Source of the DNA: an uncultured Gemmatimonadales bacterium
GTDB lineage: Bacteria; Gemmatimonadota; Gemmatimonadetes; Gemmatimonadales; Gemmatimonadaceae
DNA length: 64,000 bases
Direction of reading: 5' to 3'
Assembly: GCA_963851265.1 (NCBI GenBank)
Contig: CAWKNZ010000006.1
Location: forward strand, 140,130-204,129
Positions 2-61,650 of the stretch are shown here, in pieces. Within the stretch, counting starts at the first letter, position 1. The number at the start of each line of letters is the position of its first letter. The notes beneath the pieces were generated by a model. It was not told where the DNA came from, did no database searches, and saw only the letters and a list, made by a program, of their open reading frames with translations. A program made the translations under genes and the position numbers.

Positions 2-247
2 CAGGTCGAGGCCGCCGACGCGGACCGGCCCGTCAACGTCTATACGCGCCGGCACGGCGGCACGGGGCTCGGGCTGACGATCGCGCGGCGCCTCACGCGG
101 CTCATGGGCGGCGACCTCACCCTCGAGAGCACGCCCGGGCGGGGCTCGCGGTTCAGTGTCTGGCTGCCGCTCGCGCCGGCGACGCGCTTCACGCCCGCGT
201 GGACGCCGGCGGTGCTGGACGCCCGGGCGTTAGGCGAACGCCCGTGA
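2..247 (+). CDS. Sensor histidine kinase, C-terminal HATPase_c fragment (5' end outside the window)
   Basis: Manual translation of frame +2 gives ...[43 protein letters not shown]..., i.e. the G2 box GGTGLGL and the typical GSxF tail. Stop TGA at 245-247. Confidence 0.85.
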
Positions 248-248
248 T

Positions 249-1961
249 TCAGGCCACGACGGCGGCGTCGCGGAGCAGCGCCTCGACGAGCACCGCGCGC
301 GCCGCGTGGTCGCCGTCGCCGATCGCCGGCGGGTCGATCAGCTCGGCGTAGCAGCGCGCCGCCGCCGCGGGCGCGGGATCACCCGCCGCGGCACCGCGCG
401 CCGCATCCTCGGCGAGCAGCACGAGCGCGAGGCTCTGCGCCAGCCGGTGCAGCAGGCGGCGCGCGTACACCGGACCGGCGTCGGGCGACGCGGTGGTCGC
501 GGCGTAGGCGCGCCGGTCCCCGTCGAGGCGGCCCGCGAGCGCCGCGCGCAGCCCGCCGGGTTCGTCAGGCAGCACGGCGAGCGCCCCGCCCGCGCGGCGC
601 TCGTACGCGGCGAACCCGCCGTAGCGCGGGTGGAGCAGGCGCATGAGTTCGAGCGCCTGGATGTTGGCGGGCCCTTCCCACACGGTGAGCACCTGCGCGT
701 CGCGCAGGAGACGCTCGACCGGGTAATCGCGCGTGTAGCCGTTCCCGCCGAGCAGTTCGAGCGCGGCGCGGCTCGCGGCCACCGCGTCGTCGGCGGTCAG
801 GTACTTCGCGAGGGCGGTGGTCAGGCGCAGCCACGCCCGGCGCGCGGGGTCGCGAAGCGCGTCGTCGACCGCGCCCGCGGCCTCGAAGGCGAGGAGGGTG
901 CCCGCGCGCCACCGCACCGCCAGCTCGGCGAGCGTCTCCTGCACCATCGGGTAGTCGGCGATCGCGCGGCCGAACGCGCGCCGCCGCGTCGCCCACGCGA
1001 GCGCTTCCGCGAGCGCCCGGCGCTGCACGCCGGCCGCGCCGACGGCGTTGTGCACGCGGCTGTAAGTGAGCGCCTCGAGCATCAGGCGCAACCCGTCCGG
1101 CGGCGCCGCGACCTCCACGGCTTCGGCGCCTAACAGCTCGATCTCGCCGGTCGGCAGGCCGCGCGTGCCGAGCTTCTCCTTGAGGCGGCGGATGAGGTAG
1201 TGGTTGACGCGCCCGTCGTCGAGGTGGCTCGGGACCAGGTAGAGGCCGAGCCCGGCGGAGCCCGGCGGGGCGCCCGCCGGGCGGGCGGTGGCGAGCGCGA
1301 GGCCGCCGTTGGCGTTGCTGGCGAACCACTTGAGGCCGTGGAGCGCGTGCGTCGCGGTCCAGCGACCCGCGACATCCGGCTGAGCCGCGACCGGACGCGC
1401 CTCGGTGGTCGTCGCGCCCACGTCGCTGCCGCCGTGCATCTCGGTCGCCCAGGTGCCGCCGGTCTTGGCGCGCCCGTCCGTCCGGGTGAGGTCGGGCAGG
1501 AACCGTTCGCGCAGCGCGGGCGAGGCGAAGTGGCCGAGCACGTACGCGACCGCGCCGGTGAGGGTGACCGGGCAGTGCAGGCTGATGTCGGCCTGCGACA
1601 GCAGGTACCCCATCGTGAAGCTCAGCAGATGCGGCGCGCCGTCGTGGTACGGACGGCCGACGATGCCGCGCGCGTAGACCTCGTCGTGCTGGGCGGCGTA
1701 GGCGGCGTTGAGCACGATCCGGTTGACCACGCGCCCGTCGCGGTCGTACGTCTCGAGCCGCGGCGGCGCGTCGCGGTCCGTCGTTGCCGCCTGCGCGTCG
1801 ACCTCGGTCCGCACCCAGCGGTGGAAGTCGCCGAGCTCCGCGCGGTACCGGTCGAAGCCGGGCACGCGCGCTTCGAGTCGCGGGGCGAGGTACGCGTCGT
1901 ACGCGTCGTCGGCGTGACGCGCGGGCGCGGCACGCGGCGGGGCGTTGCGGTCGGTCGTCAC
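249..1961 (-). CDS. Acyl-CoA dehydrogenase family protein (AidB-like)
   Basis: Motifs CPVTLT, WATEMHGGSDVG, GLKWFASN, RLKEKLGTR, GGNGYTRDYP and VWEGPANIQ. Confidence 0.9.
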   Translation of the reverse strand: MTTDRNAPPRAAPARHADDAYDAYLAPRLEARVPGFDRYRAELGDFHRWVRTEVDAQAATTDRDAPPRLETYDRDGRVVNRIVLNAAYAAQHDEVYARGIVGRPYHDGAPHLLSFTMGYLLSQADISLHCPVTLTGAVAYVLGHFASPALRERFLPDLTRTDGRAKTGGTWATEMHGGSDVGATTTEARPVAAQPDVAGRWTATHALHGLKWFASNANGGLALATARPAGAPPGSAGLGLYLVPSHLDDGRVNHYLIRRLKEKLGTRGLPTGEIELLGAEAVEVAAPPDGLRLMLEALTYSRVHNAVGAAGVQRRALAEALAWATRRRAFGRAIADYPMVQETLAELAVRWRAGTLLAFEAAGAVDDALRDPARRAWLRLTTALAKYLTADDAVAASRAALELLGGNGYTRDYPVERLLRDAQVLTVWEGPANIQALELMRLLHPRYGGFAAYERRAGGALAVLPDEPGGLRAALAGRLDGDRRAYAATTASPDAGPVYARRLLHRLAQSLALVLLAEDAARGAAAGDPAPAAAARCYAELIDPPAIGDGDHAARAVLVEALLRDAAVVA

Positions 1962-2076
1962 GACGCGAATCCTACGGCGCGGTCCGCTGCGGCGTTATGG
2001 TTGCCGTGACGCGCGGCGTATGCCGCGCGGGGAAGCGCACCTGCGCGCGCGACCGAACGGTCAACGGAGGATGGGC

Positions 2077-4110
2077 ATGGCGGGCCTACGGGGTCGAACC
2101 ACGGCGGCAATCGGGCACGCGGCGCCCACGGCGCGGTTCGGCGGGCCCGCGGCGCTGGCCGCGCGGGTCGGCGCCGTACTCATGGCGGTCACGGCGCTCG
2201 CCCCGGCGCTCGCCCCGGCGCGCGCGCCGGCGCAGCCTGCGGCCGCGCGAGCCGCGGCCGCGCCGGGTGCCCCGACGGAGGGTCTCTACCTTCCGCGCGC
2301 GGTCAAGCGCGCATTCTCCCGGGGCACGCGCTCGCTCGACGGGCGACCTGGCCCGCGCTACTGGCAAAACCGCGCGCGCTACACGATCACGCTCACCACG
2401 CTGCCTCCCGACCGCGCGGTGCGCGGGACGGAGCAGATCGTCTACGCGAACAACAGCCCCGACACGCTGCGGACGCTCGTGTTCAAGCTGTTCGCCAACA
2501 TCCACAAGCCGGGTGCACCGCGCGAGGCGCCGGCGAGCCCCGATTATCTCACGTCGGGCGTGCAGGTCGACGCGTTCACGGTCGACGGCCGCGAGGCGCG
2601 CTGGGGCGACGACGCGCGCACCTTCACGGTGCACGAGGTGCCGCTCGCCACGCCGCTCCTGCCGCACGACTCGGTCCGCCTCGCGATCAGCTGGCACTAC
2701 GACCTGTCGCGCGAGGCCGGCCGCGAGGGGATGCTCGACTCGACGACGTCGTACCTCGCGTACTTCTACCCGCGCGTGGCCGTCTACGACGACTACAACG
2801 GGTGGGACCGGATGACGTTCACCGACGCGCAGGAGTTCTACAGCGACTTCAACGACTACGACGTCACGCTGCGCGTGCCGGCCAACGACGTCGTCTGGGG
2901 CACGGGCACGCTGACCAACGCCGCGGCCGTGTTGCGCCCCGAGCCGCTCCGGCGCTTTCGGGCGTCGCTGACGTCGGACACCACGATCCACGTCGCCACG
3001 CGCGCGGAGTTGGCCGCGCACAGCGTCACCGTCCCCGCGGCGGCCGCCGGCGCGCCGGTCGCGTGGCACTTCGCCGCGACCAACGTGCCCGACGTGACCT
3101 TCGCCGTGAGCGACCACTACGTGTGGGATGCCGCGAGCGTCGTGGTCGACACGGCAACGGGCCGGCGCGCGGGCGTGCAGGCCGCGTACAACGACACGGC
3201 CGTCGACTTCCGCTCCATGGTGCAGTTCGGCCGCCACTCGCTCGACTGGCTGTCGCGCCACTGGCCGGGCGTGCCCTACCCGTACGAGAAGACGACGGTG
3301 GTGCAGGGCAGCGCCGACATGGAGTACCCGATGATGGTCAACGACGGCAGCACGCGCGACACCACGTTCTCGCGCTTCGTCGTCGAGCACGAGATCGCGC
3401 ACACGTGGTTCCCGTTCTACATGGGGATCAACGAGACGCGCTACGGCTTCATGGACGAGGGCTGGGCGACGACGTTCGAGTACCTCATCGGGCTCGCCGA
3501 CCTCGGCGCCGCGCGCGAGACGGCCTTCTACCAGCAGTTCCGCGTCGCGCGCTGGATCCGCGATCCGTCGCCGGTCGAGGACCTCCCGATCGTCACCCCG
3601 GGCGACGTACTCTCCGGCGCGGGACTCGGCAACAACGAGTACGGCAAGGCGTCGCTCGGCTACCTGGCCGTGAAGGATCTGTTAGGCGACGCCGTGTTCC
3701 GCCGGTCGCTGCACGCGTTCATGGACCGGTGGCACGGGAGGCACCCGATCCCGTGGGACTTCTTCGACACCTTCGACGACGTGTCCGGGCAGAACCTCGA
3801 CTGGTTCTGGCGCGCCTGGTTCTTCTCCAACGCGTACATCGACCTCGCGGTCGACGGCGTGCGGGGGACGCCCGGCGGCTACGCCGTCTCGCTCCGCAAC
3901 GTCGGCGGCATGCCGGCGCCCGTGAACCTCGTGCTGACCTACGCCGACGGCAGCACCGAGACCGTGCACGAGACGCCGGCGATCTGGGCGTCCGACCAGC
4001 AGCGCGCGACGGTCACCCTCCGCACGGGCAAGGCGCTCCGCTCGCTCGCGCTGGAGGGCGGCATCTTCATGGACGCGGACCGCTCGAACGACCGCTGGCA
4101 GGCGCCGTAG
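2077..4110 (+). CDS. Secreted M1 family zinc metallopeptidase
   Basis: HEIAH zinc motif with downstream FMDEG, DMEYP (GAMEN-like), YWQNRA and a hydrophobic signal-like N-terminus. GGAGG at 2066-2070 precedes ATG 2077. Start uncertain. Confidence 0.85.
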   Translation: MAGLRGRTTAAIGHAAPTARFGGPAALAARVGAVLMAVTALAPALAPARAPAQPAAARAAAAPGAPTEGLYLPRAVKRAFSRGTRSLDGRPGPRYWQNRARYTITLTTLPPDRAVRGTEQIVYANNSPDTLRTLVFKLFANIHKPGAPREAPASPDYLTSGVQVDAFTVDGREARWGDDARTFTVHEVPLATPLLPHDSVRLAISWHYDLSREAGREGMLDSTTSYLAYFYPRVAVYDDYNGWDRMTFTDAQEFYSDFNDYDVTLRVPANDVVWGTGTLTNAAAVLRPEPLRRFRASLTSDTTIHVATRAELAAHSVTVPAAAAGAPVAWHFAATNVPDVTFAVSDHYVWDAASVVVDTATGRRAGVQAAYNDTAVDFRSMVQFGRHSLDWLSRHWPGVPYPYEKTTVVQGSADMEYPMMVNDGSTRDTTFSRFVVEHEIAHTWFPFYMGINETRYGFMDEGWATTFEYLIGLADLGAARETAFYQQFRVARWIRDPSPVEDLPIVTPGDVLSGAGLGNNEYGKASLGYLAVKDLLGDAVFRRSLHAFMDRWHGRHPIPWDFFDTFDDVSGQNLDWFWRAWFFSNAYIDLAVDGVRGTPGGYAVSLRNVGGMPAPVNLVLTYADGSTETVHETPAIWASDQQRATVTLRTGKALRSLALEGGIFMDADRSNDRWQAP

Positions 4111-5908
4111 CGACGCCGCCCGCCTTCACCCGCGTGGTCCACTCGCGCACGCGCTGCTCGAGCACGTCCATGGGCAGCGCGCCGGCGCCGAGCACCTCGT
4201 CGTGGAAGGCGCGCACGTCGAAGCGTGGGCCTAACGTCTGGCGGGCCTCGTCGCGGAGGCGCAGGATCGTCAGCTGCCCGACCTTGTACGCGAGCGCCTG
4301 ACCCGGCCACGCGATGTAGCGGTCGGTCTCCGATTGCACCTCCGCGTCGGCCGCGCTCGAGTGCGCCCGAAAGAACGCCACGGCCTGCTCGCGCGTCCAC
4401 CGCCGGTCGTGGATGCCGGTGTCGAGCACGAGGCGGATCGCGCGGAGCATCTCGTCGTCCAGGCGCCCGTAGTCGCTGTACGGGTTCTGGTAAAACCCGA
4501 CCTCCTTGCCGAGCCGCTCGGCGTACAGCGCCCACCCCTCGACGTACGCGGTGTAGCCCGCCTGCTGGCGGAACGGCGGGAGCGACGGCAGCTCCTGCGC
4601 GATCGAGACCTGCATGTGGTGCCCCGGCACCCCCTCGTGGTACGCCGTCGACTCGTTGTTGATGGTGAGCTGGTGCGCGAAGTCGTAGGTGTTGACGAAC
4701 ACGTGCCCGGGGCGCGACCCGTCGGGCGTGCCCTGGTTGTACGCGGTCGACGCCTCCTTCTCGCGGAACGGCTCGACCGGCAGGATCTCCAGCTTCGCCT
4801 TCGGCAGCCGGCCGAAGAGCGTGGGGAGCTTCGCCCACATCTGCGCCGTGTAGCGGCGGTACTCGTCGAGGATCTGCTCGCGCGAGGTCGGGTGCAGGGC
4901 CGGGATCTTCACGATCGAGTCGCGGAACGTGCGGACGTCGGCGAAGCCGAGCCGGCGCGCGATGGCGAGCTGCTCGCCCTCGATGCGCGCGACCTCCCGC
5001 AGCCCGAGCGCGTGGATCTCGTCGGGCGTCATGCGCGTGGTCGTCGTGCGGCGCACGGCGAGCGCGTACCGCGCCGCGCCGTTAGGCAACGCCCGCGTGC
5101 CGATGTCGGCGCGCCCGCGCGGCGCGTACTCGTCGCGGACGAAGGCGGTGAAGCGCAGGTACGCGGGCAGCACGCTGTCGCGCACGGCGGCGAGCACGGC
5201 GGCGCGCAGCCGCGCCCGGTCGGCGTCGGAGAACTCCTTCGGCATCTGCGCGAGCGGCACCGCGAACGGCGTCGAGTCGGGCGCCTGGCCCGCGATGCCG
5301 CCCGCCTGCGTCGCCACCTGGGTGAGCAGGATCTTCGGCGGCATGAGCCCCTCCGCCATCCCCTCCCGCATCACGGCGGTCACCTGCGCGAAGGCCCGCG
5401 GCACCGCGCGGAGTCGTGCGACGTAGTCGTCGTAGTCCTTGACGGTCGCGAACGAGAGCGAGGTGACGAGCTGTGGCAGGTCGATGTGCAGCCCCGACAT
5501 CTGCGTGACCGGCATCTCCCACTCGCGGAAGGGCGCGGCCTCCAGCGCGGTGCGCAGGTTGAGCAGCATCAGGTCGCGGTTGAGCCGCTCCTGCTCGGGG
5601 AAGCCCGCCGTGTCGATAGCCGCGAAGCGCGCTTCGAACCGCCGTGCCGCGGCGACGTCGCGCTCGGCGGCGGCCGCCGACATGTCGCTGAGCTGGTCGT
5701 TGTAGCGCTTGTCGCCGAGCACCGACGCGAATTCGGGCGTCGTCCGCAGCGTGTACTCCCACTGCTCGTCGAGCAGGGCGTGGAGCGCGCGGACGCGGTC
5801 CTGAACGGCGGGGGAGAGCGTCACGGGCGGCGGAGCCACCTGTGCGCCCGCGCGGGCGCTGGCACAGGCGAGAACGAGCGCGGCGAGCAGCCGGGGAGTG
5901 CGCGGCAT
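4067..5908 (-). CDS. DUF885 family secreted protein
   Basis: C-terminal part of ORF 4067..7057. Signal peptide MPRTPRLLAALVLACASARAGAQ and motifs HEGVPGHHMQ, EGWALYAE, RLVLDTGIH, PGQALAYKVG. Overlaps the convergent M1 peptidase by 44 bp. Confidence 0.9.
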   Translation of the reverse strand: MPRTPRLLAALVLACASARAGAQVAPPPVTLSPAVQDRVRALHALLDEQWEYTLRTTPEFASVLGDKRYNDQLSDMSAAAAERDVAAARRFEARFAAIDTAGFPEQERLNRDLMLLNLRTALEAAPFREWEMPVTQMSGLHIDLPQLVTSLSFATVKDYDDYVARLRAVPRAFAQVTAVMREGMAEGLMPPKILLTQVATQAGGIAGQAPDSTPFAVPLAQMPKEFSDADRARLRAAVLAAVRDSVLPAYLRFTAFVRDEYAPRGRADIGTRALPNGAARYALAVRRTTTTRMTPDEIHALGLREVARIEGEQLAIARRLGFADVRTFRDSIVKIPALHPTSREQILDEYRRYTAQMWAKLPTLFGRLPKAKLEILPVEPFREKEASTAYNQGTPDGSRPGHVFVNTYDFAHQLTINNESTAYHEGVPGHHMQVSIAQELPSLPPFRQQAGYTAYVEGWALYAERLGKEVGFYQNPYSDYGRLDDEMLRAIRLVLDTGIHDRRWTREQAVAFFRAHSSAADAEVQSETDRYIAWPGQALAYKVGQLTILRLRDEARQTLGPRFDVRAFHDEVLGAGALPMDVLEQRVREWTTRVKAGGVATAPASGRSSGPRP

Positions 5909-6067: not shown

Positions 6068-7411
6068 GTGACCACGCTCAACGCGCTCCGCGTCCTCGCC
6101 CGCGGCGCCTGTCTGGCCGCCCTCTGCGCGACGCACCTCGCCGCGCAGGCGCCGGTGGATTCCGCGCTCGCGGCGTACATCGCCGGCGTGCGCGCGATCG
6201 ACGCGCACGCCCATCCCATGCGCCCCGTCGCGCCGGGCGCGCCCGCGGACTCGGAGTACGACGCGCTGCCGCTCGACGGCATCCCGCCCGCCCCCCTGCC
6301 CGCGCGCTTCCGGCCCGGGCACCCGTCGTGGCGCGCGGCGCAGCGCGCGCTCTACGGCGTCACGCCGGCCGACACGACGGCCGCCGCCGCCGCGCCGCTC
6401 GCGGCCGCCGTCGCGCGCGTGCAGGCGGCACGCGGCGCGGCGTTCCCGGCCTGGGCGCTGGACCAGGCGGGCGTGGAGGTGATGCTCGCCAACCGCGTGG
6501 CGATGGGCCCGGGACTCGACGCGCCCCGCTTTCGTTGGATCTCGTTCGTCGACGCGCTGATGCTGCCGTTGGACGTCCGCGGCGAGGCGGCGCGCACGCC
6601 AGACGTGCGGTCGCTCTATCCGCGGGAGGCGACGCTCCTGCAGCGCTACCTCCGCGACCTGGGGCTGCGGGCGGTCCCGCCGACCCTCGACGCCTACGTG
6701 CGCCAGGTGGTCGCGCCGACGCTCGACCGGCAGCAACGCGCCGGCGCGGTCGGCGTGAAGTTCGAGGCGGCGTACCTGCGCCCGCTCGACTTCGACGACC
6801 CGGATCCGGCGCTCGCGCGCCGAGTCTACGCGCGGTACGTGGCGGGCGGCACGCCGACGCACGCCGAGTACAAGGCCCTGCAGGACTACCTGTTTCGCGA
6901 GATCGCGCGGGCGGCGGGGCGGCGCGGGCTCGCCGTGCAGATCCACGTGCTCGAGCAGTTCGGCGGCTTCTACTCCGCGCGCGGCAGCGCGCCGCACCTG
7001 CTCGAGCCGGCGTTCAACGATTCGACGCTTCGGGGCACGAACTTCGTCCTCGTGCACGGCGGCTGGCCGCTCGTCGGCGAGACGCAGGCGCTGCTCGCGA
7101 AGCCGAACGTCTACGCCGACGTCTCGATGATGGACCTGCTCGTGGAGCCGCCCGTCCTCGCAGGCGTGCTGCGGCCGTGGCTCGACGAGTGGCCGGAGAA
7201 GGTGCTCTACGGCAGCGACGCGTTCGACAACGGGCCCGCGCAGGGGTGGGAGCAGGCCGCCTGGGTCGCGTCCGCCAACGCGCGGCGTGCGTTAGGCATC
7301 ACGCTCTCCGCGATGCTCGGCGACGGCGAGGTCGACCGGGCGGGCGCCGAGCGGCTCGCGCGGATGGTGTTGCGCGAGAACGCGCGCGCGGCCTACCCGC
7401 GGCTGCGCTGA
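6068..7411 (+). CDS. Amidohydrolase superfamily protein, probably secreted
   Basis: IDAHAHP metal-binding HxH, VKFEAAY, QIH, LVHGGWP and LYGSD. GTG start followed by a signal-like segment. Confidence 0.8.
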   Translation: MTTLNALRVLARGACLAALCATHLAAQAPVDSALAAYIAGVRAIDAHAHPMRPVAPGAPADSEYDALPLDGIPPAPLPARFRPGHPSWRAAQRALYGVTPADTTAAAAAPLAAAVARVQAARGAAFPAWALDQAGVEVMLANRVAMGPGLDAPRFRWISFVDALMLPLDVRGEAARTPDVRSLYPREATLLQRYLRDLGLRAVPPTLDAYVRQVVAPTLDRQQRAGAVGVKFEAAYLRPLDFDDPDPALARRVYARYVAGGTPTHAEYKALQDYLFREIARAAGRRGLAVQIHVLEQFGGFYSARGSAPHLLEPAFNDSTLRGTNFVLVHGGWPLVGETQALLAKPNVYADVSMMDLLVEPPVLAGVLRPWLDEWPEKVLYGSDAFDNGPAQGWEQAAWVASANARRALGITLSAMLGDGEVDRAGAERLARMVLRENARAAYPRLR

Positions 7412-7415
7412 GCGC

Positions 7416-13443: not shown

Positions 13444-13605
13444 GCCGCCGGGCACCATGTTAGGCACGACCCGCACGACCCGTAATCTCCCCGCGCGCGT
13501 CCTCGCACGCGCGCACGCACGCCCCGAGTTCCTCCCCACCGCCGTGCCGCTCCGCGCCACGACACGAGTGGTTGCCGCTCACTTCACCTGTTGGAGACGT
13601 ACGTC

Positions 13606-26896: not shown

Positions 26897-28176
26897 ACCG
26901 CATGGTTGTCCAACGCTCGCGGGTGGGGCGCGTCGTACGCCTGACCGCCGCCTTCCTCGCGGTCGTCCTCGTGGCGCTCGCCGGACCGCTCGCGGGCGCG
27001 GCCGGGGCGCAGAAGTTCGAGCACCTCGCGCAGACCCCGCCCATGGGGTGGAACAGCTGGAACAAGTTCGCCTGCAACGTGAGCGAGCAGCTGATCCGCG
27101 AGACGGCGGACGCGATGGTCACGTCGGGGATGCGCGACGCCGGCTACCAGTACGTCAACATCGACGACTGCTGGCACGGCGCGCGCGACAGCGCGGGCTT
27201 CATCCAGGTCGACGCCGCTCGGTTCCCGTCGGGAATGAAGGCGCTCGCCGACTACGTCCACGCGAAGGGCCTCAAGCTCGGCATCTATTCGGACGCGGGG
27301 TGGAAGACGTGCGGGGGACGGCCGGGAAGCCGCGGGCACGAGTACCAGGACGCGCTCACGTACGCACGCTGGGGCGTGGACTACCTCAAGTACGACTGGT
27401 GCAATACCGACTCGCTCAAGGCGCAGGGCGCGTACATCACGATGCGCGAGGCGCTCCGCGCGGCCGGGCGGCCGATCGTCTTCAGCCTGTGCGAGTGGGG
27501 CACCGCGCAGCCGTGGACGTGGGCCGCGTCGGTGGGCCACCTCTGGCGCACGACCACCGACATCACCAACTGCTTCGACTGCGTTCGCAACTACGGGGCG
27601 TGGGCGCCGGCGAGCGTGCTCACGATCCTCGACAAGCAGAAGGAGCTGCGGCAGTACGCGGGCCCGGACCACTGGAACGACCCCGACATGCTGGAAGTCG
27701 GGAACGGGATGACGGCTGGCGAGGACCGCGCGCACTTCGCGATGTGGGCCATGCTCGCGGCGCCGCTCATCACCGGAACCGACCTGCGCAGCATGCCGGC
27801 CGAGACGCGCGCGCTGCTCACCAACCGCGGGCTGATCGCGGTGGACCAGGACTCGTTAGGCGTTCAGGGCTTCGCGTCGCGCTCCACGCCGGACGGCGTC
27901 GAGGTGTGGCTCAAGCCGCTCGCGGGTGGGGACTGGGCGGTCGCGGTGCTCAACCGCTCGCTCGAGCCGCGCCGCGTGACGTACGACTGGCGCCGCGACG
28001 GCGTGGCCGATGGCCTCACGCACCACTCGGCGGACTTCGCGGCCCACACGTACCGCGTGCGCGACCTGATCGCGGGGCGCGACCGGGGGACGACGGCCAC
28101 CGCGCTCGTCGCGGACGTCCCCGCCCACGACGTGCTGGTGCTGCGCCTCAGCGCGCGGGAGACCGCGTCGCGCTGA
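26893..28176 (+). CDS. GH27 alpha-galactosidase
   Basis: TPPMGWNSWN, NIDDCW, WGVDYLKYDWC, LWRTTTDI and WNDPDMLEVGN, plus a signal peptide. Confidence 0.95.
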   Translation: MNRMVVQRSRVGRVVRLTAAFLAVVLVALAGPLAGAAGAQKFEHLAQTPPMGWNSWNKFACNVSEQLIRETADAMVTSGMRDAGYQYVNIDDCWHGARDSAGFIQVDAARFPSGMKALADYVHAKGLKLGIYSDAGWKTCGGRPGSRGHEYQDALTYARWGVDYLKYDWCNTDSLKAQGAYITMREALRAAGRPIVFSLCEWGTAQPWTWAASVGHLWRTTTDITNCFDCVRNYGAWAPASVLTILDKQKELRQYAGPDHWNDPDMLEVGNGMTAGEDRAHFAMWAMLAAPLITGTDLRSMPAETRALLTNRGLIAVDQDSLGVQGFASRSTPDGVEVWLKPLAGGDWAVAVLNRSLEPRRVTYDWRRDGVADGLTHHSADFAAHTYRVRDLIAGRDRGTTATALVADVPAHDVLVLRLSARETASR

Positions 28177-40054: not shown

Positions 40055-40148
40055 GTCTGCTGTTGTTCGGAAGGAGCGGTAGGGGACCGGACGGCGCGAA
40101 CGTACGCCGGCGGTGGGTGCTACGGGCCGAGCGGGGCGCGAAACATCG

Positions 40149-42877: not shown

Positions 42878-45553
42878 ATGCTCAAACCTGACATGCGCGC
42901 TCTACAGGTAGGGCTCGCCGCGATCCTGGGCTGTAGTGCGCTCGCGGGCGCGGGGGCGCAACCGGCGAACGTGCGCGGCGCCGCCGCGCGTGCGGACGCT
43001 CCGGGGGCGGCAACTCGCGCCGCGTACGTCGACGCCGCCGGCGTGATCCGCTGGCGCGACACGCGCGACGAGGTCGCCCTCTTCGGCGCGAACTACACGC
43101 TGCCGTCGGCCTCCGACTACCGCGCCGCGGGCTACCTCGGACTGGACCGTAAGCGCCAGATCGACGCCGACCTCGGGCAGTTCGCGCGCATGGGGTGGGA
43201 CGCGATCCGCCTGTCGTTCTGGGGCGACTGGGAAAACTCGGACTCCGCCGGCAACCTCGTCGCCAACGATCACCTCGACCTGCAGGACTACCTGATCGCG
43301 AAGGCGCACGAGCGCGGCATCTACATGCTCCTGAGCCCGATCGTGACGTACGAGGCCACGTGGCCGGACGCGCTCGCCGACACGCGGCGGCAGCCGGGGT
43401 TCAGCAACCACTTCGCGAAGTGCGAGTTAGGCACGAGCCCCGCCGCGATCGCCGCGCAGGCCAACTACCTGCGGCAGGTGCTGAACCACGTCAACCCGTA
43501 CACCGGCGTGGCGCTCAAGGACGAGCCGGCGATCCCGTTCGTCGAGATGATCAACGAGCCCTGCCACCACGCGGACGACCCCGCGCGCTCGGTGCGCTAC
43601 ATCGACGCGCTCGTCGCGGCGGTGCGCGGCACGGGTTCGAAGCAGATCCTCTTCCACAACGTCAGCCAGGACTTCGCGATCGCCGAGCCGATCCGGCGGT
43701 CGGCCGTGCAGGGCGCGACGTTCGGCTGGTACCCCACGGGGCTCAACTCGGGGCACGAGTTGCAGGGCCAGTACCTGCGCACCGTCGACGACTACGGGCC
43801 GATGCGCACGCCCGCGCTGGCCGGCCGGCCGCGCATCGTCTACGAGTTCGACTCGCCCGACCTGCGCACCGGCTACATGTATCCCGCGATGGCGCGGACC
43901 TTCCGCTCGGTGGGCGCGCAGTTCGCGGCGATGTTCGCCTACGACATGCTGGGGACGGCGTCGCGCAACCTCGGCTGGCAGACGCACTACCTCAACCTCG
44001 TCTACACGCCGCGCAAGGCGATGAGCGCGGTGGTCGCGGCCGAAGTCATGCGGCGGCTGCCGCGCGGCCAGCGTTACGGCGCGTACCCGGCCAACACGCG
44101 CTTCGGCGATTTCCGCGTCAGCGCCGACGAGAACCTCGGCGAGCTCGTCGCGCCCGACGCGTTCATCTACGCGGGGTCGACGCGCAGCGTCCCGCCGCGG
44201 CCGGCCGCGCTGCGGCGCGTGGCGGGTTACGGTTCGTCGCCGGTCGTCACTTATGAGGGCGAGGGGGTCTACTTCCTCGACAAGGTGCGCGACGGTCTGT
44301 GGCGGCTCGAGGTGTACCCCGACGCGGTGCCCGTGCGCGACCCGTTCGAGCTGCCGAGTCGCGACAAGGTGGTCACGCGGGCACTGGACGCGGCACGGCC
44401 GATGACGGTCGCGCTCCCCGACCTCGGGCCGGCCTTCACGGTCCAGTCGGTTCCCGACGGGGCGGCGCCGGGGTCGTCGGCGACCGCCGCGGCGGGCCGG
44501 TTCGACGTGAGGCCCGGCGTCTACGTACTGAGCGCCCGCGGGCCCGTCACCCGTGCCGCGCTGCCGGCGACGCTCGGGCGCCTGCGGTTCGACGAGTACC
44601 ACGCCCCTCCGCGCGACACCGTCCCGCTCCGCGTGACGATGCTCACCGCGGGCGACCACGTCGCGGGCCGCCCGGCGACGGTGGTCGCCGGCGTCGTGGA
44701 CACCGCCGCGCCCGGCCGCGTCGTGCTCTGGATGCGCCGGGCCGCGTCCGGCGGGTTCCGCCCATTCCCGATGGCGCCGTCGCGCCCGTACGAGTACGCC
44801 GCGCGCCTGCCGCCCGACGCGCTACGCGAGGGCGCGTACGAGTACGTCGTCAGCGTCACGCGCGGCGACTCGGTCACCACGTTCCCCGAGGGGCTGCACC
44901 GTCAGCCCGGGGACTACGACTTCGACGGCCAGCAGTTCTGGACGACCACCGTCGTCGCGCCTAACACCCCGCTGCGGTTGTTCGAGCCCGCGGGCGACGC
45001 CGGGCGCCTGGCGTTCACGCGCGTCGGCGACGGCGGGCGCGAGGGGCTCTTCCGCGTCGTGCCGTCGTCGGCCACCGGCGCACCCGCGTTCCACCTCGAG
45101 CTGCCGGTCGTGCGCGGGCGCGGCCTCGACGACTACACCGCGTCGCTCGTCGTGCAGGACCGGATCACGCCGCGCGCGGACGACCTCGCGCGGGCCGACC
45201 GCCTCACGCTGCGCGCGCGCGGGCTCGTACCGGCGCAGCTGGTGCACGTCACCCTCGTCGAGCACGACGGCACGAGTTGGGGCGCCGCCGTTCGGCTCGA
45301 CACGGCGTGGGGTGAGCACACCGTGCGGATCGCGGACCTCGCGCCGGTGCGCAGCGCGATGCTGCCCGAAGCCTTCCCGGGCGAGTGGAGCTACTGGGTG
45401 GGCCCGGCGGCCGGCCGAGGCGTGACCGGTGACCGCCCCCGACTCGCGAACGTCGAGCGGCTGCAGCTCTCGTTGCGCGGAGCGGACGCGCTCTCGCCCG
45501 TTTCAGGCGCGGCGGGCGTCGAAGTTGAATCGGTGACACTCACCTTCCCGTGA
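42878..45553 (+). CDS. Secreted clan GH-A glycoside hydrolase (GH5-like, possibly GH147-type beta-galactosidase) with extra C-terminal domains
   Basis: Signal peptide, FGANYTLP, NHVNPYTG, INEP (acid/base-like), YEFD (nucleophile-like) and FAYD. The family assignment is from recall only. Confidence 0.65.
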   Translation: MLKPDMRALQVGLAAILGCSALAGAGAQPANVRGAAARADAPGAATRAAYVDAAGVIRWRDTRDEVALFGANYTLPSASDYRAAGYLGLDRKRQIDADLGQFARMGWDAIRLSFWGDWENSDSAGNLVANDHLDLQDYLIAKAHERGIYMLLSPIVTYEATWPDALADTRRQPGFSNHFAKCELGTSPAAIAAQANYLRQVLNHVNPYTGVALKDEPAIPFVEMINEPCHHADDPARSVRYIDALVAAVRGTGSKQILFHNVSQDFAIAEPIRRSAVQGATFGWYPTGLNSGHELQGQYLRTVDDYGPMRTPALAGRPRIVYEFDSPDLRTGYMYPAMARTFRSVGAQFAAMFAYDMLGTASRNLGWQTHYLNLVYTPRKAMSAVVAAEVMRRLPRGQRYGAYPANTRFGDFRVSADENLGELVAPDAFIYAGSTRSVPPRPAALRRVAGYGSSPVVTYEGEGVYFLDKVRDGLWRLEVYPDAVPVRDPFELPSRDKVVTRALDAARPMTVALPDLGPAFTVQSVPDGAAPGSSATAAAGRFDVRPGVYVLSARGPVTRAALPATLGRLRFDEYHAPPRDTVPLRVTMLTAGDHVAGRPATVVAGVVDTAAPGRVVLWMRRAASGGFRPFPMAPSRPYEYAARLPPDALREGAYEYVVSVTRGDSVTTFPEGLHRQPGDYDFDGQQFWTTTVVAPNTPLRLFEPAGDAGRLAFTRVGDGGREGLFRVVPSSATGAPAFHLELPVVRGRGLDDYTASLVVQDRITPRADDLARADRLTLRARGLVPAQLVHVTLVEHDGTSWGAAVRLDTAWGEHTVRIADLAPVRSAMLPEAFPGEWSYWVGPAAGRGVTGDRPRLANVERLQLSLRGADALSPVSGAAGVEVESVTLTFP

Positions 45554-46545
45554 CCTCCATCCGACCCATGCCCGCGTCCGACCGCTACGACCAGATTCCC
45601 TACCGCCGCTGCGGCCGCAGCGGCCTCCTGCTGCCGGCCATCTCGCTCGGCCTGTGGCACAACTTCGGAACCGTCGACGTCTACGAAACGGGGCGGGCGA
45701 TCATCCTCCGCGCGTTCGACCTCGGCGTCACGCACTTCGACCTCGCCAACAACTACGGGCCGGTCCCCGGCTCGGCGGAGGAGACGTTCGGGCGCGTACT
45801 GTCGCGCGACCTCGCGGGCTACCGCGACGAGCTGATCATCTCGTCGAAGGCCGGCTACCGCATGTGGCCGGGCCCGTACGGCGAATGGGGGTCGCGCAAG
45901 TACCTGCTCGCGAGTCTCGACCAGAGTCTCGCGCGCATGGGGCTCGACTACGTCGACATCTTCTACTCGCACCGCCCCGACCCCGACACGCCGGTCGAGG
46001 AGACGATCCTCGCGCTCGACCAGGCCGTGCGGCAGGGGAAGGCGCTCTACGCGGGGCTCTCCAACTACAGCGCCGAGCAGACGCGCGCCGCGGTCGCGGT
46101 CGCGCGCGAGGTGCGACTCCCGCTCGTCATCCACCAGCCGAAGTACAGCATGTTCGAGCGCACGCCCGAGCAGGGGCTACTCGACGTGCTGACCGAGGAG
46201 GGGATCGGGGCGATCGCGTTCTCGCCGCTCGCGCAGGGGCTGCTGACGGACCGCTATCTCCGCGACATCCCGGCCGACTCGCGTGCGGCCAAGGATCACG
46301 GGTTCCTGCAGGCCGCCGCGATCACGGACGAGCGGCGGGCGCAGATCCGGGCGCTCGGCGAGATCGCAGCGGGGCGGGGGCAGACGCTCGCGCAACTGGC
46401 GCTCGCCTGGGTGCTCCGGAAGCCGGCCGTGACGTCGGCGCTGATCGGGGCGAGCCGGGTGGAGCAGCTGGAGCAGAATCTTGCGGCGTTGCGGAATCTG
46501 ACGTTAGGCGACGACGAGCAGGCGGCGATCGAGCGGCTGCTCTGA
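45550..46545 (+). CDS. mgrA: Aldo/keto reductase, L-glyceraldehyde 3-phosphate reductase (YghZ/Gpr/MgrA-like)
   Basis: YRRCGRSGLLLPAISLGLWHNFG, FDLANNYGP, SKAGYRMWPGPYGEWGSRKY, IHQPKYSM and FSPLAQG. Confidence 0.9.
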   Translation: MTSIRPMPASDRYDQIPYRRCGRSGLLLPAISLGLWHNFGTVDVYETGRAIILRAFDLGVTHFDLANNYGPVPGSAEETFGRVLSRDLAGYRDELIISSKAGYRMWPGPYGEWGSRKYLLASLDQSLARMGLDYVDIFYSHRPDPDTPVEETILALDQAVRQGKALYAGLSNYSAEQTRAAVAVAREVRLPLVIHQPKYSMFERTPEQGLLDVLTEEGIGAIAFSPLAQGLLTDRYLRDIPADSRAAKDHGFLQAAAITDERRAQIRALGEIAAGRGQTLAQLALAWVLRKPAVTSALIGASRVEQLEQNLAALRNLTLGDDEQAAIERLL

Positions 46546-60112: not shown

Positions 60113-60174
60113 CCGGGCGCGCGTCCGATGCCGGCGTTTCCCGACGGCGGCATCGGTGGACGGGTCCGGGCGGT

Positions 60175-60291
60175 GCTGTTCGCGTTCGGACAGCGCCGTC
60201 CCGCGGTCGGACACGCCCGGCGCCGCGGGTGGCTTCGTAAGTCGTTGCGATTGAACGGCGTCCGCCCCGTGACGGGCGGTACGGGAGTTGT
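60175..60291 (+). promoter_or_regulatory. Candidate sigma54 promoter with two upstream activator sites and an IHF-like site
   Basis: Quasi-palindromes GCTGTTCGCGTTCGGACAGC (60175-60194) and CGTCCCGCGGTCGGACAC (60197-60214). TAAGTCGTTG near 60238-60247 reads CAA-N4-TTA on the minus strand. CGGTACGGGAGTTGT gives GG-N10-GT at 60278-60291. Confidence 0.45.
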
Positions 60292-60348
60292 CGTGTGGGG
60301 GCGCGTTCTCGTGTCACCGCCCGCCCGCTTTTCCGCCCGACGCTGTTC

Positions 60349-61650
60349 GTGGACATCGCCCGCCCCAAGCGCAAGAAATCGCTCCGCAACGCTCTGATCG
60401 CCGCCGCGCTCGCGCTCGCGGCGGTCGCGACCGCGGCGCTGGCGCGGCTCGAGCCCGCAGCGCCGACGGTGGAGCGCGCGACGCTGTGGATCGACACCGT
60501 GCGGCGGGGGTCGCTGGTGCGGCAGGTGCGCGCGCCGGGGACGCTCGTGCCCGAGCACGTGCGCCTCATCTCGGCACTGACGCAGGGGCGCGTGGAGCAG
60601 ATCCGCGTGCGTCCGGGCGCGGCGGTCGAGGCGGGCACGGTGATCCTCGAACTCTCGAACCCCGACGTGCAGCTGCAGTTGCTCGACGCGGAACGCCAGC
60701 TCGGGGCCGCACAGGCCAACCTCGTGAGCCTGCGGACGCAGCTCGAGACGCAGCGGCTCGCGCAGCAGTCGGCGGTCGCGGCGCTGCAGAACGAGTTCGC
60801 CGAGGCGCGGCGGACGTCCGAGGGGTTCGACACGTTAGGCCGCCGCGGGCTGGCGAGCGGCTACGAGGTGCAGAACGCGCGGGAGAAGGCGAGCTCGCTC
60901 GCGCTGCGGCGCGACATCGAGCAGCGGCGGCTGGCGCTGGCGGCGAGCACGATCGGGCAGCAGCTCTCGCTCGAGGAGGCGAACGTCGGCCGCATGCGCG
61001 CGGTGGCCGAGTTCCAGCGGCAGCGGCTCGCGTCGATGCGCGTGACCGCGGGCGAGGCGGGGGTGCTGCAGAGCATGGACCTCGACTTCGGGCAGTGGGT
61101 GCTGCCGGGGCAGGTGCTCGCGCGCGTGGCGCAGCCGGGGCGGCTGAAGGCCGTGCTGCGCGTGCCCGAGACGCAGGCCAAGGACGTCGCGGTCGGGCAG
61201 CCGGTGGCGGTCGACACGCGCACCGGCTCCGCGAACGGCGACCAGCGCGCGGGGCAGGCCGTGGCGACGGGCGGGGCGACCGGGGTGATGCCGGGGCACG
61301 TGATGCGCGTCGACCCGTCGGTGCAGAACGGCACGGTCGCCGTCGAGGTCGCGCTCGACGGGCCGCTGCCGCCGGGCGCGCGCGCGGACCTCTCGGTGGA
61401 CGGCACGGTCGAGATCGAGCGGCTGCCGGACGTGCTCTCGGTCGGGCGCCCGGCGTACGGCCAGCCGGAGAGCACGGTCGGGATCTTCCGGCTCACGGCG
61501 GACGGCGGCGCGGCCGAGCGGGTGCGCGTCACGTTAGGCCGCGCCTCGGTGAACGCGGTCGAGGTGGTCCGCGGGCTCCGGCCGGGCGACCGGGTGATCG
61601 TCTCGGACGTGTCGCAGTACGACGCGCAGGACCGGTTACGGATCCGGTGA
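60349..61650 (+). CDS. Efflux RND/MacA-type periplasmic adaptor subunit
   Basis: N-terminal membrane anchor, VRAPGTLVPE, a coiled-coil hairpin, RVDPSVQNGTV and GLRPGDRVIVSD. Confidence 0.9.
   Translation: MDIARPKRKKSLRNALIAAALALAAVATAALARLEPAAPTVERATLWIDTVRRGSLVRQVRAPGTLVPEHVRLISALTQGRVEQIRVRPGAAVEAGTVILELSNPDVQLQLLDAERQLGAAQANLVSLRTQLETQRLAQQSAVAALQNEFAEARRTSEGFDTLGRRGLASGYEVQNAREKASSLALRRDIEQRRLALAASTIGQQLSLEEANVGRMRAVAEFQRQRLASMRVTAGEAGVLQSMDLDFGQWVLPGQVLARVAQPGRLKAVLRVPETQAKDVAVGQPVAVDTRTGSANGDQRAGQAVATGGATGVMPGHVMRVDPSVQNGTVAVEVALDGPLPPGARADLSVDGTVEIERLPDVLSVGRPAYGQPESTVGIFRLTADGGAAERVRVTLGRASVNAVEVVRGLRPGDRVIVSDVSQYDAQDRLRIR

What the first reader, a model, noticed from the sequence alone, without database searches (positions are those of the whole stretch)
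229..61539. Dispersed heptamer GTTAGGC/GCCTAAC overrides codon bias: candidate undescribed genome-wide DNA mark (HIP1/DUS-like)
Seen: manual scanning found 20 exact copies. GTTAGGC on + starts at 229, 3681, 5081, 7291, 13459, 27855, 36972, 40148, 43426, 46503, 60834 and 61533. GCCTAAC on + starts at 1128, 4229, 17504, 31742, 32981, 34084, 40632 and 44959. In 19 of 20 the consensus extends to YGTTAGGC. About 26 of the roughly 30 TTAG/CTAA tetramers I found sit in GTTAGNC. The motif is read in different ways: 14 times as TTA-GGC (Leu-Gly), 4 times as CCT-AAC (Pro-Asn), once as a TAA stop and once intergenic. TTA and CCT are otherwise strongly avoided in these GC-rich genes, so the constraint appears to be on DNA, not protein. 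Both orientations occur (12:8), unlike replichore-polarised Chi or KOPS. Established: cyanobacterial HIP1 and Neisseria/Pasteurellaceae uptake sequences also accumulate within coding regions. Inference: this is the target of a methyltransferase, repair/recombination system, DNA-uptake receptor or nucleoid-organising protein encoded elsewhere. I know of no description of it, but cannot check.
Basis: partly seen in the sequence, partly recalled or inferred. Interest (0 to 1): 0.85.

Follow-up and report, generated by a model that had tools for sequence, protein, structure and literature searches.

The report
Hyper-abundant GTTAGGC DNA word, Gemmatimonadaceae
This soil bacterium and a scattered set of its relatives write the exact DNA word (C)GTTAGGC into genes, stop codons and spacers 20 to 40 times more often than their own codon habits allow, which most resembles the DNA-uptake "self tags" of Neisseria and Haemophilus, and the word is identical to the recombination core of the integron gene cassettes these bacteria carry; what reads it is unknown.

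Summary
All 20 copies sit at the stated places (2.46 expected). The genome holds 1,762 copies (71% of all its TTAG tetramers). Coding DNA holds 1,299, against 71 and 30 under two codon-aware nulls.

The unit is Y-GTTAGGC-R, with nothing conserved beyond it. It is strand-symmetric at unconstrained sites and shows no replichore polarity. It is written synonymously on existing Leu-Gly and Pro-Asn dipeptides and on stop codons. It is densest behind convergent genes and is still being gained in three sister species.

The same word is hyper-abundant in scattered genera of one order only, at up to 1.5 per kb. None of 63 sampled genomes of the phylum outside that order is enriched.

Integrase presence does not track the enrichment.

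No RecC or AddB, C5 methylase or Vsr was found. ComEC and type IV pilus genes are present but not discriminating. The best reading is an uptake/exchange self-tag (about 0.4) with an unknown reader.

This scan has reported the same word from at least eight other windows of this genome and from another genome. My literature searches found no description.

The parts
229..235 (+). CGTTAGGC, read xxG-TTA-GGC (Leu-Gly) in a + strand gene that runs off the window start
1128..1134 (-). TGTTAGGC, TTA-GGC in acyl-CoA dehydrogenase-like gene 249-1961(-)
3681..3687 (+). TGTTAGGC, TTA-GGC in gene 2071-4110(+)
4229..4235 (-). CGTTAGGC, TTA-GGC in gene 4067-5908(-)
5081..5087 (+). CGTTAGGC, antisense to gene 4067-5908(-), read CCT-AAC (Pro-Asn)
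7291..7297 (+). CGTTAGGC, TTA-GGC in gene 6068-7411(+)
13459..13465 (+). TGTTAGGC, intergenic, just after gene 11941-13443(+)
17504..17510 (-). CGTTAGGC, antisense to SusD-like gene 16905-18590(+), read CCT-AAC
27855..27861 (+). CGTTAGGC, TTA-GGC in gene 26923-28176(+)
31742..31748 (-). CGTTAGGC, TTA-GGC in alpha-amylase-family gene 31667-33532(-)
32981..32987 (-). CGTTAGGC, TTA-GGC in the same gene 31667-33532(-)
34084..34090 (-). TGTTAGGC, TTA-GGC in gene 33592-35049(-)
36972..36978 (+). TGTTAGGC, antisense to SusD gene 35373-36980(-), read CCT-AAC near its start
40148..40154 (+). CGTTAGGC overlapping the stop of the GalA beta-galactosidase gene 40149-42656(-), read GCC-TAA-C
40632..40638 (-). 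CGTTAGGC, TTA-GGC in GalA gene 40149-42656(-)
43426..43432 (+). AGTTAGGC (the one copy without Y at -1), TTA-GGC in gene 42878-45553(+)
44959..44965 (-). TGTTAGGC, antisense to gene 42878-45553(+), read CCT-AAC
46503..46509 (+). CGTTAGGC, TTA-GGC in aldo-keto reductase gene 45568-46545(+)
60834..60840 (+). CGTTAGGC, TTA-GGC in gene 60295-61650(+)
61533..61539 (+). CGTTAGGC, TTA-GGC in gene 60295-61650(+)

Best explanation
Y-GTTAGGC-R is a self-propagating "self tag" of the DUS/USS kind. Some step of DNA exchange between kin favours fragments that carry the word. The likeliest step is binding of incoming double-stranded DNA by the type IV pilus / ComEA / ComEC uptake route. Alleles with the word are therefore imported and fixed slightly more often than alleles without it.

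This weak, genome-wide push is about as strong as codon bias and weaker than selection on protein sequence. It fills every place where the word costs little: Leu-Gly as TTA-GGC, Pro-Asn as CCT-AAC, stop codons as GT-TAG-GC or GCC-TAA-C, and above all the spacers behind genes.

Shown here: the statistics, the placement rules, the ongoing gain and retention, and the clade distribution. Inferred: that the push is biased uptake. The reader protein is unknown.
For: 1. Size and sharpness. CDS holds 1,299 copies vs 30-71 under codon-aware nulls. The density is 383 per Mb, vs 20 per Mb in 400 kb of the word-poor relative G006. One-letter variants stay near that relative's baseline. G006 has no alternative hyper-abundant word.

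2. Symmetry.
- 885 forward and 877 reverse copies.
- In spacers between co-directional genes, 78 copies share the gene direction and 79 oppose it.
- There is no association with GC skew: forward 416/469, reverse 402/475.
- The sense-strand excess in genes is explained by the supply of Leu-Gly vs Pro-Asn.

3. Placement by cost.
- Occupancy is 7.8% of Leu-Gly and 10.9% of Pro-Asn sites.
- 83 of 769 TAG stops and 128 of 455 TAA stops lie in the word.
- Density is 1.30 per kb in convergent spacers, 0.58 in tandem spacers, 0.33 in divergent spacers and 0.31 in coding DNA.
- The protein is not altered.

4. Dispersal.
- 1,051 of 3,823 genes carry at least one copy, vs 1,043 expected under Poisson.
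- Close pairs are under-represented: gaps under 500 bp are 11.0% vs 17.5% expected.

5. Residence-time gradient. Density rises from 0.14 per kb in the 10% of genes with the least typical codon usage to 0.41 per kb in the top quartile.

6. An active process.
- 621 Leu-Gly sites are conserved in three species (about 80% nucleotide identity). At 58 of them the word is in one species only. At 18 of those the other two share one spelling, and 12 of the 18 come from G-CTC-GGC, two changes to the rarest Leu codon.
- Where two species share G-CTC-GGC and the third differs (127 cases), the word is the commonest two-step outcome: 12, next 6.
- Among the 12 commonest spellings at 921 conserved sites, the word is retained best: 0.49, phi 0.38, vs 0.43 and 0.21 for the favoured G-CTC-GGC.

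7. Clade pattern.
- The same 8-9-mer, with the same -1 C and +7 R, occurs in all five genomes of this genus and in G012, which has 62% GC and 7,758 copies, about 1.5 per kb.
- G012 occupies 22% of Leu-Gly sites conserved with G000 (25 of 112).

8. Machinery.
- ComEC is present in 40 of 41 genomes of the order, G000 included.
- G000 also has a ComEA-like HhH protein, PilA, PilM/N/O and a PilQ secretin.
Against: - The uptake machinery is equally present in word-poor relatives, so it explains nothing about who has the word.
- No receptor was found. Two pilin-like proteins that I tested occur in word-rich and word-poor genomes alike.
- I know of no demonstrated natural competence in this phylum. 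One search returned 9 papers, seen as a listing only, and none looked relevant.
- The word is shorter than DUS (10-12 bp) or USS (9 bp plus flanks).
- One identical word is scattered over genera of three families. That differs from genus-specific dialects and suggests a mobile or repeatedly lost reader.
- Four-fold-site divergence between species is not lower near words (0.62-0.64 at all distances), so no word-linked homogenisation was detected.
- The identity with the integron core is left as coincidence or co-option.
Confidence: 0.4

Rival explanations
1. Self-marker or binding array for a chromosomal DNA-handling machine. This could be a Chi-like stop signal for an unrecognised helicase-nuclease or defence system that spares DNA carrying the word. 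It could also be a dense array of sites for a nucleoid or segregation protein. Selection would act on density, not on position.
For: - It is the most over-represented word of the genome.
- It is enriched in genes with typical codon usage.
- Close pairs are under-represented.
- Density is maintained while positions turn over.
Against: - RecC was found in only 1 of 41 genomes, G017, and not in G000.
- No AddB match in G000, G001, G012 or G006, and only one weak hit in G009 (E 4.9e-4, 19 bits).
- There is no orientation bias at unconstrained sites (78:79) or against GC skew, whereas Chi and KOPS are polar (recalled).
- No known nucleoid protein uses thousands of exact 8-mers (recalled).
Confidence: 0.2
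2. Integron-linked. The word is read by the integron integrase, or by a protein derived from or associated with it. The dispersed copies would be double-stranded R-box sites, serving as attI/attG-like landing or binding sites, or a by-product of integrase-linked recombination.
For: - The word equals the R''/R' boxes of attC sites of this order. GCCTAAC-N76-106-GTTAGGC pairs with conserved internal arms number 25 in G027, 8 in G025 and 9 in G037, some next to intI.
- G000 has its own array: C10 from about 188 kb to the contig end, plus C6:1-2.7 kb. Its attC ends carry mostly C at -1 and G at +7, like the dispersed word.
- IntI scores over the cut-off in 25 of 41 genomes of the order.
- Enrichment is confined to that order: 0 of 63 sampled genomes of the phylum outside it.
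- A preprint shows integrases inserting cassettes at double-stranded genome sites (10.1101/2022.09.11.507474, passages read).
Against: - Only 3 of the 8 word-rich genomes have an apparently intact intI (G003, G004, G040).
- In G000 it is split by an inserted serine-recombinase element. In G001 it is degraded with a stop. In G012 it lies in three frames. G002 and G018 have none. G132, word-rich and 99% complete, has none at E<=1e-30.
- Many genomes with intact intI have baseline counts, for example G009 with 11 copies.
- The preprint reports that genome insertion needs only GWT, not a strict 8-mer.
- Fewer than about a dozen of the 1,762 copies have an inverted partner.
- Landing sites inside genes should be selected against.
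Confidence: 0.15
3. Donor-side drive. A packaging or transfer machine, such as a gene-transfer agent, a transducing phage terminase or a conjugative nickase, starts preferentially at the word. Word-bearing DNA would then be exported to kin more often.
For: It predicts the same statistics as uptake bias. A mobile machine would also fit the patchy distribution of one identical word.
Against: No such machine was looked for or seen. Known pac/cos and oriT sites are few per genome (recalled).
Confidence: 0.08
4. Mutation or repair bias. A context-specific hotspot, such as deamination of a methylated precursor GTTGGGC/GCCCAAC, or a very-short-patch-like repair, converts neighbouring words into GTTAGGC.
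For: - GTTGGGC is a frequent alternative state at non-shared sites.
- Methylases are patchily inherited (recalled).
Against: - G000 has no PF00145 and no PF01555 methylase, only frameshifted PF02384 remnants, and no Vsr.
- Its one Eco57I/MmeI-type protein is conserved in 40 of 41 genomes regardless of the word.
- The supposed precursor is not depleted: 303 per Mb vs 222 in G006.
- Most clean gains come from G-CTC-GGC by two changes.
- Known repair biases shift word counts by far less than 20-40 fold (recalled).
Confidence: 0.07

Closest known systems
DNA uptake sequences: DUS of Neisseriaceae (minor pilin ComP as receptor) and USS of Pasteurellaceae (features recalled, not from a call)
   Same: A short exact word, thousands of copies at about 0.4-1.5 per kb. 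Both orientations, dispersed through ordinary genes against codon habits. Densest behind genes, shared by related genera, with positions turning over while density is kept.
   Different: The word is shorter (8-9 bp with flanks). The same word, not dialects, is scattered patchily over three families. Inverted pairs are rare. No competence is known in the phylum and no receptor was found. The word coincides with the integron core.
Integron attC / attI core site (GTTRRRY and its inverse RYYYAAC; consensus recalled)
   Same: The letters are identical: GCCTAAC...GTTAGGC bound the attC sites of this order and of this genome's own array. The TAA stop inside GCCTAAC is the usual cassette arrangement.
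   Different: The 20 window copies, and nearly all of the 1,762, are solitary double-stranded words inside housekeeping genes. They have no hairpin partner, no cassette and no integrase nearby. Integrase presence does not track the enrichment.
Chi sites of RecBCD/AddAB (features recalled)
   Same: The most over-represented word of the genome, with a spacing of a few kb, and enriched in resident genes.
   Different: No RecC or AddB was found. No orientation bias. The word overrides codon usage instead of riding on common codons.
HIP1 of cyanobacteria (features recalled)
   Same: A hyper-abundant short word inside genes, limited to one clade.
   Different: HIP1 is a palindrome tied to methylation. 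This word is asymmetric, and no matching methylase was found.

Membership tests
DNA uptake sequences (DUS/USS) | Genome-wide over-representation of one short word far beyond composition and codon usage | tested here: met
   1,299 in CDS vs 71 and 30 under two codon-aware nulls. 1,762 vs 126.5 under order-3 Markov. 383 per Mb vs 20 per Mb in the word-poor relative G006.
DNA uptake sequences (DUS/USS) | Both orientations, no replication polarity, dispersed through genes and spacers | tested here: met
   885:877. 78:79 in tandem spacers. No link to GC skew. Poisson-like spread over genes.
DNA uptake sequences (DUS/USS) | DNA carrying the word is taken up or transforms better than DNA without it | not testable with these tools
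   Needs uptake or transformation assays in a word-rich isolate.
DNA uptake sequences (DUS/USS) | Competence machinery present (ComEC, ComEA, type IV pilus and secretin) | tested here: met
   The same genes are present in word-poor relatives, so this condition is necessary but not discriminating.
DNA uptake sequences (DUS/USS) | A specific receptor whose presence goes with the word (ComP in Neisseria) | tested here: inconclusive
   Two pilin-like proteins of G000 occur in word-rich and word-poor genomes alike. Other pilin-like genes were not tested.
Integron attC site | Inverse core and core as an imperfect inverted repeat (about 60-140 bp) able to fold, at the 3' end of a cassette | tested here: not met
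   None of the 20 window copies has a partner. Genome-wide only 11 -/+ pairs lie within 160 bp, most of them in the array on C10/C6.
Integron attC site | Core letters GTTRRRY / RYYYAAC | tested here: met
   The word is the core used by attC sites in G027, G025, G037, G005 and G000. The consensus itself is recalled.
Integron attC site | Dependence on an integron integrase | tested here: not met
   Only 3 of 8 word-rich genomes have an apparently intact intI, and many intI-bearing genomes are word-poor.
Chi | RecBCD or AddAB present | tested here: not met
   RecC in 1 of 41 genomes, not in G000. No AddB match in G000, G001, G012 or G006, and one weak hit in G009. Other helicase-nucleases were not searched.
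Chi / KOPS | Orientation skew along the replichores | tested here: not met
   Orientation follows the gene sense strand only and is 78:79 in spacers. Origin and terminus were not mapped, so a weak skew cannot be excluded.
HIP1 | Palindromic word with a cognate methylase | tested here: not met
   The word is not a palindrome. No PF00145 or PF01555 methylase, and only broken PF02384 genes.

The most novel reading that the evidence does not exclude
The exchange tag and the integron core are the same word for a reason. In this order the DNA-uptake (or export) step reads the very letters that bound every gene cassette, so each cassette carries two tags and is preferentially trafficked between kin. 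The thousands of chromosomal copies would be the drive's by-product. That would couple natural transformation to integron cassette capture at the level of one 8-letter signal. A published link exists between transformation and cassette recombination in Vibrio (PMC12614218; I saw only its title and abstract start in search listings and a primer-table passage).
Probability: 0.12. Interest if true: 0.9.

Novelty: new variant of a known kind. Interest (0 to 1): 0.8.

Why it matters
Sequence-biased DNA exchange is established in only two proteobacterial families (recalled). A third, independent case would make the evolution of such tags directly testable, for three reasons.
- It lies in an abundant, little-studied soil phylum.
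- Word-rich and word-poor species sit side by side, even in one genus. In genus g71, G212 has 1,061 copies of CGTTAGGC against 271 of the control word (the word read backwards). G153 has 181 against 452.

The identity with the integron core raises a concrete question about how gene cassettes travel and where they land.

Practically, the word is a strong marker for binning and for telling resident from recently acquired DNA in these genomes.

Tried and rejected
- Replichore polarity: none against GC skew or in spacers. GC skew is noisy here, and origin and terminus were not mapped.
- A longer element around the word: 219 fully intergenic copies show information only at -1 (C 73%, T 16%) and +7 (G 46%, A 28%). 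It is not a REP or MITE.
- Dialects: the word-poor relative G006 has no other hyper-abundant word.
- Integrase as reader: no tracking.
- Chi machinery: not found.
- Methylase / Vsr: not found. The Eco57I/MmeI-type 1,141-aa protein is conserved in 40 of 41 genomes at 38-57% identity outside the genus, no closer in word-rich G012 (52%) than in word-poor G006 or G008 (53-54%).
- Pilin-like candidates: C9:34212-35204 was found in 37 of 41 genomes but not in G001 or G002, with its best hits in word-poor genomes. C3:174674-175138 was found in 27 of 41, in both classes. Neither tracks the word.
- Word-linked homogenisation between species:
  - Raw identity falls with distance from words, from 0.833 to 0.796.
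  - Within genes, four-fold sites are flat at 0.62-0.64.
  - The raw trend therefore reflects words sitting in better-conserved genes.
- Shared ancestry of sites between genera: 5 shared at conserved Leu-Gly sites between G000 and G012, against 2.2 expected. That is too few to tell.
- Rfam on the integrase region: nothing.
- DtxR/IdeR iron box: a paper listing shows the word in DtxR operator sequences (PMC1382209, listing only). The operator is a 19-bp palindrome (recalled), and the flanks here show no such extension. Rejected.
- Literature:
  - The word alone gives primer noise.
  - Gemmatimonad + 'uptake sequence' gave 0 papers.
  - Gemmatimonad + integron + attC gave 6 papers, none on a dispersed word, judged from titles and abstract starts.
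  - PMC8618304 only lists the phylum among integron carriers (passage read).
- Not used: the look-up of sequencing runs, read laying, structure tools and complex prediction. About 8 words per 20 kb would give too little power.

Full report
**Observation.** Dinucleotide-preserving shuffles give 2.46, and 0 of 100 reach 20.
- 14 copies read TTA-GGC, 4 read CCT-AAC, one overlaps a TAA stop and one is intergenic.
- 19 of 20 have a pyrimidine in front.
- 26 of the window's 30 TTAG/CTAA tetramers lie in GTTAGNC.

The window is G000:C6:140130-204129 of a 4.60-Mb, 73% GC assembly in 12 contigs. Its genes are SusC/SusD loci, glycosidases and a pst operon. The best named relative of one of them is a Gemmatimonadaceae MAG. 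Together these fit the family label given by earlier notes of this scan.

**Genome scale and nulls.**
- The genome holds 1,762 copies, 885 forward and 877 reverse, on every contig at 0.33-0.55 per kb. That is 1,762 of all 2,470 TTAG tetramers.
- Against an order-3 Markov model, GTTAGGC is the top 7-mer (1,762 vs 126.5) and CGTTAGGC the top 8-mer (1,396 vs 58.3).
- Coding DNA holds 1,299 copies. Shuffling synonymous codons within each gene, which keeps the inflated TTA count, gives 71.4 +/- 5.4. Resampling from word-free codon usage gives 30.2 +/- 5.6.
- Outside the word, TTA is 324 of 131,409 Leu codons.
- A word-poor relative gives an empirical baseline: 8 copies in 400 kb of G006 (20 per Mb), against 383 per Mb here.
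- One-letter variants stay near that baseline, so the specificity is sharp at all seven letters.
- In 219 fully intergenic copies the only further information is at -1 (C 73%, T 16%) and +7 (G 46%, A 28%). The unit is therefore Y-GTTAGGC-R and is not part of a longer repeat.

**Placement rules.**
- Inside genes, 997 copies read xxG-TTA-GGC, 202 xxG-CCT-AAC, 75 xGC-CTA-ACx and 25 GTT-AGG-C.
- The 79% sense-strand excess is a matter of supply. 7.8% of 12,873 Leu-Gly dipeptides and 10.9% of 1,906 Pro-Asn dipeptides are written as the word.
- Orientation along contig C2 follows gene direction, not a separate axis.
- 83 of 769 TAG stops and 128 of 455 TAA stops lie inside the word.
- Density is 1.30 per kb in convergent spacers, 0.58 in tandem spacers, 0.33 in divergent spacers and 0.31 in coding DNA. 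In tandem spacers, 78 copies share the gene direction and 79 oppose it.
- There is no association with GC skew.
- Copies are spread over genes as a Poisson process would spread them: 1,051 of 3,823 genes carry one, against 1,043 expected.
- Close pairs are under-represented: gaps under 500 bp are 11.0% vs 17.5% expected.
- Density rises from 0.14 per kb in the genes with the least typical codon usage to 0.41 per kb in the most typical quartile.
- Word-coded Leu-Gly is as conserved at the protein level as other Leu-Gly: 81 vs 73% against G001, 58 vs 54% against G006 and 40 vs 42% against G012.
- The force therefore overrides codon preference but not protein sequence.

**Dynamics.** Sister species of the genus are about 80% identical in syntenic DNA.
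- Over 366 kb aligned between G001 and G000, 56 copies are shared, 116 are G001-only, 58 are G000-only and 33 lie at gaps.
- At 921 Leu-Gly sites conserved between the two, 40 carry the word in both, against 9.0 expected if independent. 41 carry it only in G000 and 62 only in G001.
- Among the 12 commonest spellings at these sites, the word is retained best: 0.49, phi 0.38. The favoured G-CTC-GGC scores 0.43 and 0.21, and the two other rare-Leu-codon spellings most like it, G-TTG-GGC and G-CTG-GGC, score 0.15 and 0.06.
- With a third species (G004), 621 Leu-Gly sites are conserved in all three.
  - 22 carry the word in all three, 43 in two and 58 in one.
  - Of the 58, 18 have the other two species agreeing on one spelling, and 12 of those are G-CTC-GGC, two changes away.
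  - Where two species share G-CTC-GGC and the third differs (127 cases), the word is the fourth commonest outcome and the commonest two-step one: 12, next 6.
- The word is thus being created in all three lineages and, once made, is kept at least as well as the best codon pair, while about half of the sites differ between species.

**Who has it.**
- Among 41 genomes of the order, 8 have more than twice the count of the control word (the word read backwards). These are all five genomes of this genus (977-3,304 copies), G012 of another genus (7,758 in 5.1 Mb), G018 and G040. G036 and G023 are intermediate, and most others hold 10-100 copies.
- G012 has 62% GC and the same flanks: C at -1 in 85%, and R at +7. 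It writes the word at 25 of 112 Leu-Gly sites conserved with G000.
- In an even sample of 201 genomes of the phylum, 7 exceed twice the control for CGTTAGGC, and G219 reaches 1.7 times. The seven are G000, G122, G132, G166, G194, G174 and G212.
- All eight belong to the same order, and 0 of 63 genomes outside it are enriched.
- One genus, g71, spans rich and poor genomes.
- Among 80 named loci around a GalA relative, three Gemmatimonadaceae MAG loci carry 11-16 copies of CGTTAGGC in 10-22 kb. Nine other loci labelled as members of this phylum carry 0-1, and one Gemmatimonadales locus carries 5, clustered. The 67 loci of other phyla carry 0-2.
- G011 and G086, G125 and G204 are unpublished genomes. 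They enter only as word-poor rows of these tallies.

**The integron link.**
- In the order, GCCTAAC-N76-106-GTTAGGC pairs with conserved inner arms recur every 0.4-0.6 kb. G027 has 25, G025 has 8 and G037 has 9, in several cases beside an integrase gene.
- G000 has its own array of small minus-strand cassettes. They include PIN-like/DUF433 pairs, BrnT, HicAB and DUF4926/DUF6883. The array runs on C10 from about 188 kb to the contig end and continues on C6:1-2.7 kb. Stop codons sit in GCCTAAC, and the attC ends carry mostly C at -1 and G at +7.
- The adjacent integrase gene is split at C6:2951-3322 and 5202-6044 by an insert encoding a large serine recombinase.
- Integrase does not track the enrichment. 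It scores over the cut-off in 25 of 41 genomes, many of them word-poor. Only 3 of the 8 word-rich genomes have an apparently intact copy. G132 is word-rich and has none.
- A preprint reports that integrases insert cassettes at double-stranded genome sites needing only GWT (10.1101/2022.09.11.507474, passages read). That is much less than the strict 8-mer seen here.
- Fewer than about a dozen of the 1,762 copies have an inverted partner.

**Candidate machines.**
- ComEC is present in 40 of 41 genomes.
- ComEA-like and PilQ-like genes occur in rich and poor genomes alike.
- G000 has pilA, pilM/N/O and a secretin in one locus.
- Two pilin-like proteins do not track the word.
- RecC was found in 1 of 41 genomes and not in G000. 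AddB gave no match in G000, G001, G012 or G006, and only a weak hit in G009.
- G000 has no PF00145 or PF01555 methylase, only frameshifted PF02384 remnants, and no Vsr.
- Its Eco57I/MmeI-type protein is conserved in 40 of 41 genomes.
- The supposed deamination precursor GTTGGGC is not depleted.

**Reading.**
- The statistics are those of a weak, genome-wide, strand-blind push towards one exact word. The push acts wherever the word is cheap, is still active, and is present or absent as a unit in scattered lineages.
- The only established process with this signature is sequence-biased DNA uptake (DUS, USS). I rate that, or a closely similar bias in DNA exchange, at about 0.4.
- The rivals are a density-selected self-marker or binding array (0.2), an integron-linked reader (0.15), donor-side packaging bias (0.08) and mutation or repair bias (0.07).
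- No local lowering of synonymous divergence near words was seen. This does not help the uptake reading but is weak evidence at 80% identity.
- The reader protein remains unknown.

**Novelty.**
- My searches found no paper describing the enrichment. The library lacks most subscription journals.
- Within this scan the same word has already been reported from at least eight other windows of this genome and from another genome.
  - the polarised three-species gain and retention analysis;
  - the spacer-class densities;
  - the codon-typicality gradient;
  - the phylum-wide limit to one order;
  - the negative tests for Chi machinery, methylase/Vsr, integrase tracking and two pilins.

Noticed in passing
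G000 C10:~188,000-215,025 and C6:1-2,700 (outside the window; loci L086, L085): A sedentary chromosomal integron array of dozens of small minus-strand cassettes. They include toxin-antitoxin pairs (PIN-like/DUF433, BrnT, HicA/HicB, DUF4926/DUF6883), SnoaL and DUF4440. The cassettes are bounded by GCCTAAC...GTTAGGC attC sites. One cassette (72 + 94 aa) occurs at C10:194.6 kb, C10:214.5 kb and C6:1.0 kb, so C10's end probably joins C6's start.
   Followed up: partly
G000 C6:2951-6230 (locus L085): The integron integrase gene is in two pieces: the C-terminal catalytic part at 2951-3322 and the N-terminal part at 5202-6044. They are separated by an insert carrying a large serine recombinase (Resolvase + Recombinase + Zn ribbon). 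There is no Rfam match in the region.
   Followed up: partly
G000 C10:200,855-202,064 and 206,388-207,597: Two identical copies of an IS110-family (DEDD) transposase element lie inside the cassette array, each with GCCTAAC on both sides. This is the arrangement known for IS1111-attC elements (recalled). Their flanks are identical too, so this is a segmental duplication.
   Followed up: partly
G000 C7:579,717-585,511 (locus L087) and relatives: A 1,141-aa Eco57I/MmeI-type methylase-domain protein sits next to an SNF2-type helicase and is conserved in 40 of 41 genomes of the order. In many relatives the match carries one in-frame TGA (sometimes TAG) or is split near residues 507-546.
   Followed up: no
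G000 C7:771,474-772,495 and C9:923-1,858: Two N6_Mtase (PF02384) genes are broken into several frames. They look like remnants of restriction-modification systems.
   Followed up: no
window 19200, 20641, 23399, 23900, 32192: Five copies of the one-letter variant GTTAGTC (56 in the genome), all five with C in front like the main word. They are probably near-cognate or decayed copies.
   Followed up: no
whole genome G000: Under a maximal-order Markov model the top 7-mers are AGCGCCT, AGCGCTT, AGCGGCT and the like. AGCGCT itself is rare (1,233, against 8,622 for GGCGCC), which may mean avoidance of a restriction-type hexamer. Leu codon CTG is about 3-fold depleted before any GGN glycine codon.
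   Followed up: no
G000 C2, 0-800 kb: GC skew flips sign roughly every 50-100 kb (+/-0.03-0.08) without matching gene orientation. From 1.0 to 1.4 Mb genes are about 90% on +, and from 1.4 to 1.6 Mb about 88% on -. The replichore structure is unclear.
   Followed up: no
G000 C1:176716, C2:11211, C2:116118: Three tight inverted pairs of the word: head-to-head GCCTAACGTTAGGC, and two short perfect hairpins with the words as the outer arms. They resemble terminator-like DUS pairs but are very rare here.
   Followed up: no
G012 sample (loci L041-L060): In the richest genome the last letter is looser. In 260 kb, GTTAGGT occurs 75 times, GTTAGGG 40 and GTTAGGA 21, against GTTAGGC 378. T is common at -2 (35%).
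   Followed up: partly
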